A stretch of 64,000 nt of DNA from Escherichia coli (GTDB taxonomy: Bacteria; Pseudomonadota; Gammaproteobacteria; Enterobacterales; Enterobacteriaceae): assembly GCF_041248615.1 (NCBI RefSeq), contig NZ_CP158426.1; one strand, given 5' to 3'. Below the pieces are notes generated by a model that saw nothing but the letters and a program-made list of their open reading frames with translations, searched no databases and was not told where the DNA came from. The translations under genes and the position numbers were made by a program. Numbering within the stretch: the first letter of the stretch is position 1; every line of letters begins with the position of its first letter. Positions 2,462 to 2,509 of this stretch are shown in pieces.

Positions 2462-2509
2462 TATCCCTTAATTGTGCATAGTCGCAACAGCATGCACAAT
2501 TAAGGGATA
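2462..2509. promoter_or_regulatory. long perfect inverted repeat in yajQ/panE divergent intergenic region
   Basis: arms 2462-2479 and 2492-2509 are exact reverse complements (…TCCCTTAATTGTGCAT / ATGCACAATTAAGGGA…), 12-nt spacer. Confidence 0.4.

What the first reader, a model, noticed from the sequence alone, without database searches (positions are those of the whole stretch)
2462..2509. 18-bp perfect inverted repeat in the yajQ/panE divergent promoter region
Seen in sequence: arms 2462-2479 and 2492-2509 are exact reverse complements with a 12-nt spacer, between the divergent starts of yajQ (2384) and panE (2552). A palindrome this long and perfect is unlikely by chance. It could be a dimeric regulator binding site or a stable 5'-UTR structure; it is not a REP-type sequence.
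Basis: seen in the sequence. Interest (0 to 1): 0.35.

Follow-up and report, generated by a model that had tools for sequence, protein, structure and literature searches.

The report
Known RNase III hairpin, mirror-image promoters
The 18-bp perfect palindrome between E. coli yajQ and panE is real and functional, but it was already published in 2017 as an RNA hairpin cut by RNase III in a long yajQ leader; public start-site data suggest that the same DNA also holds two mirror-image promoters.

Summary
Arms 2462-2479 and 2492-2509 are exact reverse complements with a 12-nt loop. This is the longest perfect inverted repeat in the 64-kb window and far beyond chance.

It is not new. Gordon, Cameron & Pfleger (mBio 2017) list an RNase III site 'Intergenic (panE-yajQ)' at NC_000913.3 444573. 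I map that position to window 2494, inside the right arm. They showed loss of reads in wild type versus the rnc deletion, in-vitro cleavage, 5' RACE, and a yajQ mRNA half-life of about 6 versus 3 min.

Three start-site data sets place a yajQ start inside panE (window 2651). That gives a 267-nt leader containing the hairpin.

My additions:
- Cappable-seq puts a second yajQ start at 2464, and RNA-seq puts the panE 5' end at 2508. These are the two feet of the palindrome. Each strand reads TTGTGC-17 nt-CACAAT-6 nt-A.
- The element lies in a roughly 60-nt insertion in the panE leader, found here only in Escherichia (perfect) and the Citrobacter freundii group (imperfect). It is absent from Salmonella, Klebsiella, Enterobacter and others.

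It has one copy per genome, no Rfam match and no terminator tail. The only transcription-factor evidence is an adjacent in-vitro NtrC peak.

Verdict: already known, modest interest.

The parts
2462..2479 (.). Left arm of the palindrome, TATCCCTTAATTGTGCAT. It is the 3' arm of the hairpin in yajQ-sense RNA.
   Evidence: 18 nt, 100% complementary; sequence
2480..2491 (.). 12-nt loop or spacer (AGTCGCAACAGC). It is identical in E. albertii and free to vary in Citrobacter.
2492..2509 (.). Right arm, ATGCACAATTAAGGGATA. It is the 5' arm of the hairpin in yajQ-sense RNA.
2494..2494 (-). Published RNase III site: position of rnc-dependent read depletion, NC_000913.3 444573.
   Evidence: PMC5371410 Table 1 and Table S1; coordinate mapping via NC_000913.3 444400-444800
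2385..2651 (-). Long (267-nt) 5' UTR of the distal yajQ transcript. This is the only mapped native RNA that contains the whole hairpin.
   Evidence: Start site at 443640 (older MG1655 numbering, U00096.2/NC_000913.2) in TSS-seq with '5'UTR 267' (PMC3415461); Cappable-seq 443640, score 35.9 (PMC4782308); Conway promoter 443641 as quoted in PMC7373196 Table S1
2658..2663 (-). Inferred -10 hexamer TACAAT of the distal yajQ promoter, inside the panE coding sequence.
   Evidence: upstream sequence ...CACACTACAATAAGGTTG; same string in PMC3415461; the hexamer assignment is inferred
2464..2464 (-). Second yajQ-sense start site (P2), third base from the outer end of the left arm.
   Evidence: Cappable-seq TSS U00096.2 443827, score 43.2; conversion
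2471..2476 (-). Inferred -10 CACAAT for yajQ P2, read on the minus strand. Positions 2472-2477 on the plus strand read TTGTGC, the inferred -35 for panE.
   Evidence: TTGTGC-17 nt-CACAAT-TAAGGG-A on both strands; assignment inferred from the start-site positions
2495..2500 (+). Inferred -10 CACAAT for panE. Positions 2494-2499 on the minus strand read TTGTGC, the inferred -35 for yajQ P2.
   Evidence: inferred
2507..2508 (+). 5' end of panE mRNA. Conway reports 443783, which is window 2508; the mirror image of the P2 start would be 2507.
   Evidence: PMC7373196 Table S1, Conway overlap 443641-443783; Lybecker seed ends at 443780; p19 dsRNA cluster ends at 443776. Primary (triphosphate) status was not verified.
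2508..2651 (.). Overlap of the divergent yajQ-distal and panE transcripts. It forms sense/antisense dsRNA that is also an RNase III substrate.
   Evidence: p19-captured 21-22-bp duplexes at 443643-443777 and cluster 443437-443776; Lybecker MS-115 'Divergent'
2541..2549 (-). Candidate anti-SD in the long yajQ leader (UUCCUCCUC, the antisense of the panE Shine-Dalgarno). It is predicted to pair with the yajQ SD.
   Evidence: Partition-function fold of the full leader; also seen in the MFE fold; hypothesis only
2387..2398 (-). yajQ Shine-Dalgarno region (AGGGAGAGGAAA).
2409..2422 (-). Proximal yajQ promoter P1. The start site is at 2409 and the -10 TATTAT runs 2422 to 2417. It is conserved as GCATAATACC in all genera examined. 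Its mRNA lacks the hairpin.
   Evidence: Cappable-seq 443882, score 63.7; alignment
2446..2460 (-). Small hairpin GUCCUG-GUG-CAGGAC, 2 nt 3' of the big hairpin in yajQ-sense RNA. It is a candidate 5'-proximal stabiliser of the RNase III-processed and P2 mRNAs.
   Evidence: terminator-like hit; folds; the role is inferred
1893..2384 (-). yajQ coding sequence
2552..3463 (+). panE coding sequence

Best explanation
The palindrome is a two-layer element.

RNA layer (shown by others, re-mapped here). A yajQ transcript starts inside panE at window 2651. It carries the palindrome as an 18-bp stem, about 20-22 bp with flanking pairs and roughly -27 to -28 kcal/mol. RNase III cuts this stem. The cut removes the upstream about 150 nt of leader, which is antisense to the panE 5' end. 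It is associated with a doubling of yajQ mRNA half-life.

Inferred steps for the RNA layer:
- The cut unlinks an anti-SD (the antisense of the panE SD, 2541-2549) from the yajQ SD.
- The processed mRNA is left with the small 2446-2460 hairpin close to its new 5' end.

DNA layer (start sites shown by others, promoter assignment inferred here). The same 48 bp contain two overlapping back-to-back sigma-70-type promoters that are mirror images of each other. Each strand reads TTGTGC-17 nt-CACAAT-6 nt-A. These drive panE (5' end at 2507/2508) and a second yajQ start (2464). The -10 of one promoter is the complement of the -35 region of the other.

Origin (inferred). The element lies within a roughly 60-nt insertion just downstream of the ancestral panE -10. 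It remains imperfect in Citrobacter. It is perfect in Escherichia, which lost the ancestral -10.
For: - Structure: one search gives the perfect inverted repeat. Searches give hairpin MFE of -27/-28 kcal/mol on either strand. Whole-region folds have z-scores of -3.7 and -4.4.
- RNase III: PMC5371410 reports 96 reads in the rnc deletion versus 2-3 in wild type at 444573, in-vitro cleavage 'Y', 5' RACE, and half-life of about 6 versus 3 min. map 444573 to window 2494, in the right arm. One search shows both in-vitro templates span the palindrome.
- Native RNA carrying the hairpin: the distal start site appears in three independent data sets.
- Promoters: Cappable-seq, which captures triphosphate 5' ends, places a start at window 2464. 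This is exactly 7 nt after CACAAT, with TTGTGC 17 nt upstream. The panE 5' end at 2508, the Lybecker seed end and the p19 cluster end all stop at the right foot.
- Citrobacter keeps TTGT(A/T)C-18 nt-(A/T)ACAAT on both strands although the loop sequence and length differ.
- Constraint: 68 bp are identical in 5327 of 5424 E. coli genomes. There are 0 of 91 differences from E. albertii over 2461-2551, against 5.1% in the yajQ CDS and 11.7% in the panE CDS.
- Insertion: pairwise alignments.
- Anti-SD. The SD's main predicted partners are 2541-2549, and the SD unpaired probability is 0.30 in the full leader versus 0.53 after the cut.
Against: - Gordon's RNA-seq libraries were TruSeq RNA Library Prep. 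As far as I know that kit is not strand-specific; the text does not say. If so, the strand cut in vivo is their inference.
- The distal promoter gives only about a quarter of the Cappable-seq signal for yajQ (35.9 against 43.2 and 63.7). A two-fold change in bulk yajQ half-life could therefore be partly indirect.
- The panE 5' end at 2508 comes from ordinary RNA-seq. I could not see genome-minus-strand Cappable-seq rows because the stored file is cut, so it could be a processed end.
- The hexamers are weak (3/6 and 4/6), and the consensus scan called no promoter here.
- The predicted anti-SD effect is small, and shorter transcripts also partly pair the SD.
- Perfect symmetry is not needed for either function taken alone.
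Confidence: 0.8

Rival explanations
1. The symmetry exists only because of the promoter pair. RNA hairpin formation and RNase III cutting of the occasional read-through transcript are a by-product with no regulatory value.
For: - Start sites sit at both feet with matching hexamers.
- Citrobacter keeps hexamers and spacing while tolerating an A.A mismatch that improves one -10 to TACAAT.
- Most yajQ start-site signal comes from promoters downstream of the hairpin.
Against: - Promoter function needs only two hexamers per strand, not 18 of 18 complementary bases. The outer 10 bp (TATCCCTTAA/TTAAGGGATA) lie outside the hexamers yet are perfectly paired and invariant.
- An effect on yajQ mRNA half-life has been measured.
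- Citrobacter keeps outer-stem pairing through G.U pairs.
Confidence: 0.25
2. It is an operator for a dimeric or tetrameric transcription factor that co-regulates panE and yajQ.
For: - It is a perfect palindrome covering both core promoters, an ideal place for a repressor.
- An NtrC gSELEX peak lies in this spacer (PMC8743547).
- GTGCA...TGCAC motifs occur in the arms.
Against: - No transcription factor is reported at this site in the papers found.
- The gSELEX peak maps to about 2445, over TGCACCA at 2450-2456, not to the palindrome. It is in vitro only, at 41% intensity.
- The half-site order and spacing do not fit the NtrC consensus TGCACC-N5-GGTGCA (consensus quoted from my own knowledge).
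- 18-nt arms with a 12-nt gap are atypical for an operator.
- Salmonella, Klebsiella and Enterobacter have the same genes but no such site.
Confidence: 0.07
3. It is a 5'-terminal stabilising stem-loop of panE mRNA, and the relevant RNA is panE-sense.
For: - In Citrobacter the ancestral panE -10 (GCTATACT) sits about 6 nt upstream of the stem.
- Non-Watson-Crick pairs are G.U in the panE sense in 7 columns against 1 column in the yajQ sense.
- The panE-sense hairpin is -20 to -26.5 kcal/mol, against -7 to -17.6 for the yajQ sense.
- Gordon et al. also cleaved a panE-sense RNA in vitro.
Against: - In Escherichia the upstream -10 has become TGCACC.
- The panE 5' end, the dsRNA seed and the p19 cluster all end at the 3' foot of the palindrome, so E. 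coli panE mRNA appears to lack the hairpin.
- The 7:1 count rests on five closely related Citrobacter sequences (about p = 0.04 one-sided, and the events are not independent).
Confidence: 0.15
4. It is a functionless relic: an inserted or locally duplicated sequence made perfect by template-switch 'quasipalindrome correction', or the remnant of a mobile element.
For: - It lies within a lineage-specific insertion of about 60 nt.
- Klebsiella has a different insertion at the same spot.
- Template switching is a known way to perfect imperfect inverted repeats in E. coli (my own knowledge; Lovett laboratory work).
Against: - There is a single locus per genome and no other copy, and no target-site duplication was seen.
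- It is invariant in 98% of E. coli genomes and identical in E. albertii, while the adjacent coding sequences differ by 5-12%.
- Two start sites and an RNase III site map onto it.
Confidence: 0.05

Closest known systems
RNase III site 'Intergenic (panE-yajQ)', NC_000913.3 444573 (Gordon, Cameron & Pfleger, mBio 2017; PMC5371410)
   Same: It is the same element. The position maps to window 2494 in the right arm. The authors drew the hairpin, cleaved it in vitro, mapped cuts by 5' RACE, and noted that it can form on both strands.
   Different: They did not discuss the start sites at the feet of the palindrome, the promoter hexamers, the perfect symmetry, the phylogenetic distribution, or a specific mechanism beyond 'leaves a stabilising hairpin'.
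adhE 5'-UTR RNase III site, where cleavage unmasks the ribosome-binding site (cited in PMC5371410)
   Same: RNase III cuts in a long leader and raises expression or stability of the downstream message. In my fold the yajQ SD is paired with an upstream leader segment that the cut would remove.
   Different: For yajQ the anti-SD pairing is only predicted and the effect is small. Shorter yajQ mRNAs from P1 and P2 bypass the mechanism altogether.
dsRNA from overlapping divergent 5' UTRs (Lybecker 2014 MS-115; Huang 2020 p19 capture, PMC7373196)
   Same: The same locus is listed as a 'Divergent/5' overlap' dsRNA. RNase III also processes that intermolecular duplex.
   Different: That duplex (window about 2515-2854) is intermolecular and stops at the palindrome. 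The palindrome itself is an intramolecular stem.
Bacterial bidirectional promoters (Warman et al. 2021; Grainger laboratory, NAR 2026, PMC12825309)
   Same: Sequence symmetry lets one stretch of DNA fire in both directions.
   Different: The canonical class shares or overlaps -10 elements, with start sites 18 bp apart (also 10 or 23 bp). Here the start sites are 43 bp apart. Each -10 overlaps the other promoter's -35, and the symmetry is perfect over 18 bp.
5'-terminal stem-loops that stabilise mRNA (ompA leader; Emory, Bouvet & Belasco 1992; my own knowledge)
   Same: The Citrobacter version is predicted to sit at the very 5' end of panE mRNA. The small 2446-2460 hairpin sits near the 5' end of the processed and P2 yajQ mRNAs.
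   Different: This has not been tested for this locus. In E. coli the big hairpin is internal to a long leader, not 5'-terminal.

Membership tests
RNase III processing hairpin (E. coli) | Extended, nearly uninterrupted dsRNA helix of about two helical turns | tested here: met
   18 perfect bp, extended to about 20-22 by loop-internal and flanking pairs; -27/-28 kcal/mol
RNase III processing hairpin (E. coli) | The helix is part of a native transcript | tested here: met
   A distal yajQ start at window 2651 appears in three published data sets, giving a 267-nt leader that spans 2462-2509
RNase III processing hairpin (E. coli) | rnc-dependent cleavage in vivo, and cleavage by purified enzyme in vitro | not testable with these tools
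   Published as met: PMC5371410 Table 1, Figs 3-4. I verified only that their coordinate and templates cover the palindrome.
Intrinsic (Rho-independent) terminator | G+C-rich stem followed immediately by a U tract | tested here: not met
   The stem has 6 G-C pairs out of 18. The flanks are GCCTTATTGA on the plus strand and CGTCCTGG on the minus strand. The scan reports no terminator at the palindrome, only the small 2446-2460 hairpin.
Interspersed repeat or MITE (REP/BIME, ERIC/IRU, Box C) | Many copies per genome | tested here: not met
   One locus per genome in 5424 E. coli genomes; the two 'places' are the two strands of the same palindrome. No other copy in the window at up to 3 mismatches.
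Known RNA family (Rfam 15) | Match to a curated covariance model | tested here: not met
   Only a chance SNORD19 hit at E = 7.8, elsewhere in the region
Dimeric transcription-factor operator | A protein shown to bind; half-sites and spacing conserved | tested here: inconclusive
   No binding protein in the literature searched. The NtrC gSELEX peak is adjacent, not on the palindrome. The central 9-12 nt vary in sequence and length in Citrobacter. ChIP or DAP data could not be queried.
Bidirectional promoter sensu Warman/Grainger | Divergent start sites about 18 (or 10, 23) bp apart with overlapping -10 elements | tested here: not met
   Start sites at 2464 and 2507/2508 are 43-44 bp apart. Each -10 overlaps the other's -35. 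Definition taken from PMC12825309.
Sigma-70 promoter (each direction) | Mapped primary start site with -10 and -35 hexamers at correct spacing | tested here: inconclusive
   yajQ direction: Cappable-seq start with CACAAT at -12..-7 and TTGTGC 17 nt upstream. panE direction: only an RNA-seq 5' end. Hexamers match 4/6 and 3/6, below the threshold of the scan.

The most novel reading that the evidence does not exclude
The 48-bp palindrome is a dual-use element. As DNA it is a perfectly mirror-symmetric pair of overlapping divergent promoters, with each -10 being the complement of the other's -35 region and the start sites at the two feet. As RNA it is an RNase III 'unlinking' switch in the read-through yajQ leader, which detaches an anti-SD (the antisense of the panE SD) from the yajQ SD. 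It arose as an insertion that gave Citrobacter panE mRNA a 5'-terminal hairpin. It was re-purposed in Escherichia after loss of the ancestral panE -10, an example of promoter turnover driven by an inserted palindrome.
Probability: 0.35. Interest if true: 0.45.

Novelty: already known. Interest (0 to 1): 0.27.

Why it matters
The hairpin adds nothing new to the catalogue, because it is a published RNase III target.

What could matter is the overlay. A single perfect palindrome serves as core promoter in both directions and, when transcribed from further upstream, as a processing site. If confirmed, it would be a compact natural example of one sequence constrained at the DNA and RNA levels at once. 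It would also be a geometry of divergent promoters (start sites 43 bp apart, -10 over -35) outside the described 18-bp class.

The contrast between Citrobacter and Escherichia offers a traceable case of promoter replacement after an insertion in a leader. None of this changes the understanding of panE or yajQ function.

Tried and rejected
- Rfam scan of 1700-3000 at E up to 10: nothing relevant.
- Consensus promoter/terminator scan of 2300-2650: no promoter called. The only terminator-like site is the small 2446-2460 hairpin.
- Repeat family: rejected.
- Sigma-54 promoter: I looked by eye for GG-N10-GC on both strands around 2440-2510 and found none.
- NtrC site: only a single TGCACC half-site, next to the palindrome rather than in it.
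- Metagenome scan with ATTGTACGN{10,22}CGAACAAT: the pattern was too loose.
I recovered these through the search for homologous proteins and the look-up of encoding contigs.
- Supplements of Altuvia 2018, Conway 2014 and the Belasco-laboratory paper are not held. Thomason 2015 is not held.
- The stored Cappable-seq GTF is cut before the minus-strand rows, so the panE primary start could not be checked.
- I did not enumerate the 97 E. coli genomes with 1-3 mismatches in the 68-bp query. The one inspected has an IS1203 insertion.
- Index slip: I first read the get_sequence ruler as starting one base late for 2400-2459. This was corrected (note) and all coordinates given here are the corrected ones.

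Full report
OBSERVATION

The window is the E. coli cyoE-yajR-yajQ-panE-yajL-thiI region. The repeat finder reports arms 2462-2479 and 2492-2509, 18 nt each, 100% complementary, 12 nt apart. They lie between the yajQ start (2384, minus strand) and the panE start (2552, plus strand).

This is the longest perfect inverted repeat in the window. Sixty Markov simulations of 64 kb never exceeded 14-nt arms. The arm has no other match in the window at up to 3 mismatches.

WHAT IS ALREADY KNOWN

A full-text search for yajQ, panE and 'intergenic' returned Gordon, Cameron & Pfleger, mBio 2017 (PMC5371410). Their Table 1 lists an RNase III site 'Intergenic (panE-yajQ)' at NC_000913.3 444573. Their evidence:
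- 96 reads in the rnc deletion against 2-3 in wild type.
- In-vitro cleavage scored 'Y'.
- Cleavage sites mapped by 5' RACE on a predicted long double-stranded region.
- yajQ mRNA half-life of about 6 min in wild type against about 3 min in the rnc deletion.
- A remark that the complementary hairpin could form on both strands.

I fetched NC_000913.3 444400-444800 and registered it on the window. Position 444573 is window 2494, in the right arm three bases from the loop. The palindrome is 444558-444605. Their in-vitro templates (Table S2) map to window 2339-3103 (panE sense) and 2690-1953 (yajQ sense), and both span the palindrome. [quoted passage not shown] The element as an RNA hairpin and RNase III target is therefore already published.

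WHICH NATIVE RNA CARRIES IT

Kim et al. 2012 TSS-seq lists one yajQ start, 443640(+) in the older MG1655 numbering, with a 267-nt 5' UTR and upstream sequence ...CACGCTACAATAAGGTTG. Cappable-seq (Ettwiller 2016; the GTF header says U00096.2) lists yajQ-strand starts at 443640 (score 35.9), 443827 (43.2), 443882 (63.7) and 443902 (2.3). These are the same older numbering, which is the NC_000913.3 coordinate minus 776. They correspond to window 2651, 2464, 2409 and 2389.

Only the distal start, inside the panE coding sequence, yields an RNA containing the hairpin. The strongest start, P1, uses the TATTAT -10 (2422 to 2417). That motif is conserved as GCATAATACC in every genus examined.

The p19-capture study (PMC7373196, Table S1) lists this locus as a 5'-overlap dsRNA cluster:
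- The cluster spans 443437-443776.
- It matches Lybecker's dsRNA MS-115 'Divergent' (443638-443836, seed 443638-443780).
- It matches Conway's overlapping transcripts 443641-443783, with a plus-strand promoter at 443641.

So panE mRNA has its 5' end at 443783, which is window 2508. The intermolecular duplex between the two divergent RNAs stops at the right foot of the palindrome.

THE MIRROR-PROMOTER READING (MY INFERENCE)

The Cappable-seq start at 2464 and the panE 5' end at 2508 are mirror images within 1 nt; the exact mirror of 2464 is 2507. On each strand the palindrome reads TTGTGC, a 17-nt spacer, CACAAT, TAAGGG, then A. That is a -35-like and a -10-like hexamer at canonical spacing, with the start 7 nt after the -10. 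The -10 of each promoter is the complement of the -35 region of the other.

The hexamers are weak (3/6 and 4/6), and the consensus scan did not call them. The yajQ-direction start is a triphosphate-enriched 5' end. The panE-direction end comes only from RNA-seq. The described class of bacterial bidirectional promoters has start sites 18 (or 10, 23) bp apart with overlapping -10 elements (PMC12825309). This arrangement, 43 bp apart, is not a member of that class.

COMPARATIVE EVIDENCE

Within E. coli:
- The 167-bp spacer is present in 5422 of 5426 complete genomes at one locus each.
- A 68-bp query centred on the palindrome is 100% identical in 5327 of 5424 genomes.

Against E. albertii:
- The palindrome is identical.
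- There are 0 of 91 differences over 2461-2551, against 5.1% in yajQ and 11.7% in panE coding sequence.

Species of the Citrobacter freundii group (L002, L003, L005, L006, L087, and metagenome contig L095) carry an imperfect version with a different, longer centre.

The palindrome is absent from Salmonella enterica, Klebsiella, Enterobacter, Kluyvera, Leclercia, Lelliottia, Pseudescherichia, Superficieibacter, Phytobacter, Pluralibacter, Kosakonia and Cedecea.

Pairwise alignment shows Citrobacter differs from Enterobacter and Salmonella by an insertion of about 60 nt. The insertion (palindrome plus GGTCGATATGGAT) lies just downstream of a -10-like GCTATA(C/A)T that is conserved in more than 15 genera about 40 nt upstream of panE. 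Citrobacter keeps that -10 immediately 5' of the stem. In Escherichia it has changed from GCGCTATACTAGGCT to GTCCTGCACCAGGA(C/T).

On the seven-sequence alignment A1:
- 89.7% of cells pair, against 32-52% when the partner is slid.
- One column is compensatory between genera (A-T in Escherichia, G-C in Citrobacter).
- Non-Watson-Crick pairs in Citrobacter are G.U in the panE sense in 7 columns against 1 column in the yajQ sense.
- The panE-sense hairpin is correspondingly much more stable there (-20 to -26.5 against -7 to -17.6 kcal/mol).

This suggests that in Citrobacter the selected RNA is a 5'-terminal hairpin on panE mRNA. The sample is small and the sequences are related, so I treat it as a lead only. 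Citrobacter also keeps TTGT(A/T)C-18 nt-(A/T)ACAAT on both strands.

MECHANISM

Shown by others:
- The stem is cut by RNase III.
- yajQ mRNA is about two-fold more stable in rnc+ cells.

Inferred here from folding the 267-nt leader:
- The yajQ SD (2387-2398) pairs mainly with 2541-2549, the antisense of the panE SD.
- The big hairpin lies in the enclosed multiloop, so the RNase III cut would unlink anti-SD from SD.
- The processed RNA would then have the small 2446-2460 hairpin near its 5' end. This fits Gordon's suggestion of a stabilising 5' structure.

The predicted change in SD accessibility is modest (0.30 to 0.53).

Caveats:
- The distal promoter accounts for only about a quarter of the yajQ start-site signal.
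- Gordon's libraries were TruSeq RNA Library Prep, which as far as I know is not strand-specific.

RIVALS

- Transcription-factor operator. There is no binding evidence. The adjacent in-vitro NtrC gSELEX peak maps to about 2445, over a single TGCACC half-site. The geometry is atypical.
- Terminator. There is no U tract and the stem has only 6 G-C pairs in 18.
- Repeat or MITE. It is single-copy.
- Known RNA family. No Rfam match.
- Functionless relic. This is contradicted by the conservation and by three mapped functional features. Template-switch correction may still explain how the Escherichia copy became perfect.

VERDICT

The feature is real and functional, and its principal role is already in the literature. 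The operator alternative is unsupported.

The additions from this work are the mirror-image promoter reading, the insertion origin and loss of the ancestral panE -10 in Escherichia, the Citrobacter strand bias, and the anti-SD hypothesis. These are inferences that need the experiments listed under next steps.

Noticed in passing
window 2521-2548 (+): Hairpin CACCCG/CGGGTG directly 5' of the panE Shine-Dalgarno GAGGAGG. It is kept across about 20 Enterobacterales genera with compensatory changes: 6 pairs, 3 of them with both-side changes. Cedecea has CATTCGC/GCGAATG. In Pantoea and Erwinia a CCCG-N4-CGGG stem overlaps the SD. There is no Rfam match and the function is unknown.
   Followed up: partly
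window 2446-2460: Small inverted repeat GTCCTG-cac-CAGGAC containing TGCACCA. On the yajQ strand it is followed by a U-rich tail and was flagged as terminator-like. It occupies the position of the ancestral panE -10 (GCTATACT) kept by Citrobacter and many genera. An in-vitro NtrC gSELEX peak maps here (about 2445).
   Followed up: partly
window 1893-2552 (-): A 219-aa ORF (TTG start) extends yajQ upstream through the palindrome. A 219-aa YajQ homologue (P0002, 99% identical) is deposited as a hypothetical protein of Shigella dysenteriae, presumably this same extended ORF and an annotation artefact.
   Followed up: no
L081 (NZ_CP019256.1, strain 13TMH22), equivalent to window ~2503/2504: An IS1203 (IS3-family) element is inserted inside the right arm of the palindrome, between the inferred panE -10 and the panE 5' end. 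This strain should have altered panE/yajQ control.
   Followed up: no
L086, L208, L209, L211 (Klebsiella-type loci), panE leader: Klebsiella carries a different insertion of about 60-90 nt at the same place in the panE leader where Escherichia and Citrobacter carry the palindrome. This spot seems to tolerate or attract insertions.
   Followed up: no
window 2416-2422: The invariant GCATAATACC reads TATTAT on the yajQ strand (P1 -10) and CATAAT on the panE strand. This is the overlapping -10 layout of canonical bidirectional promoters. I could not check whether it fires toward panE.
   Followed up: no
window 2515-2854: The published p19-captured dsRNA cluster extends about 200 nt further into panE than the distal yajQ start at 2651. 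This implies additional antisense transcription inside panE.
   Followed up: no
window 57881-57910, 19690-19720, 1745-1785: Other perfect inverted repeats (13-, 13- and 11-nt arms). The last lies just after yajR. They are probably terminators but were not examined.
   Followed up: no
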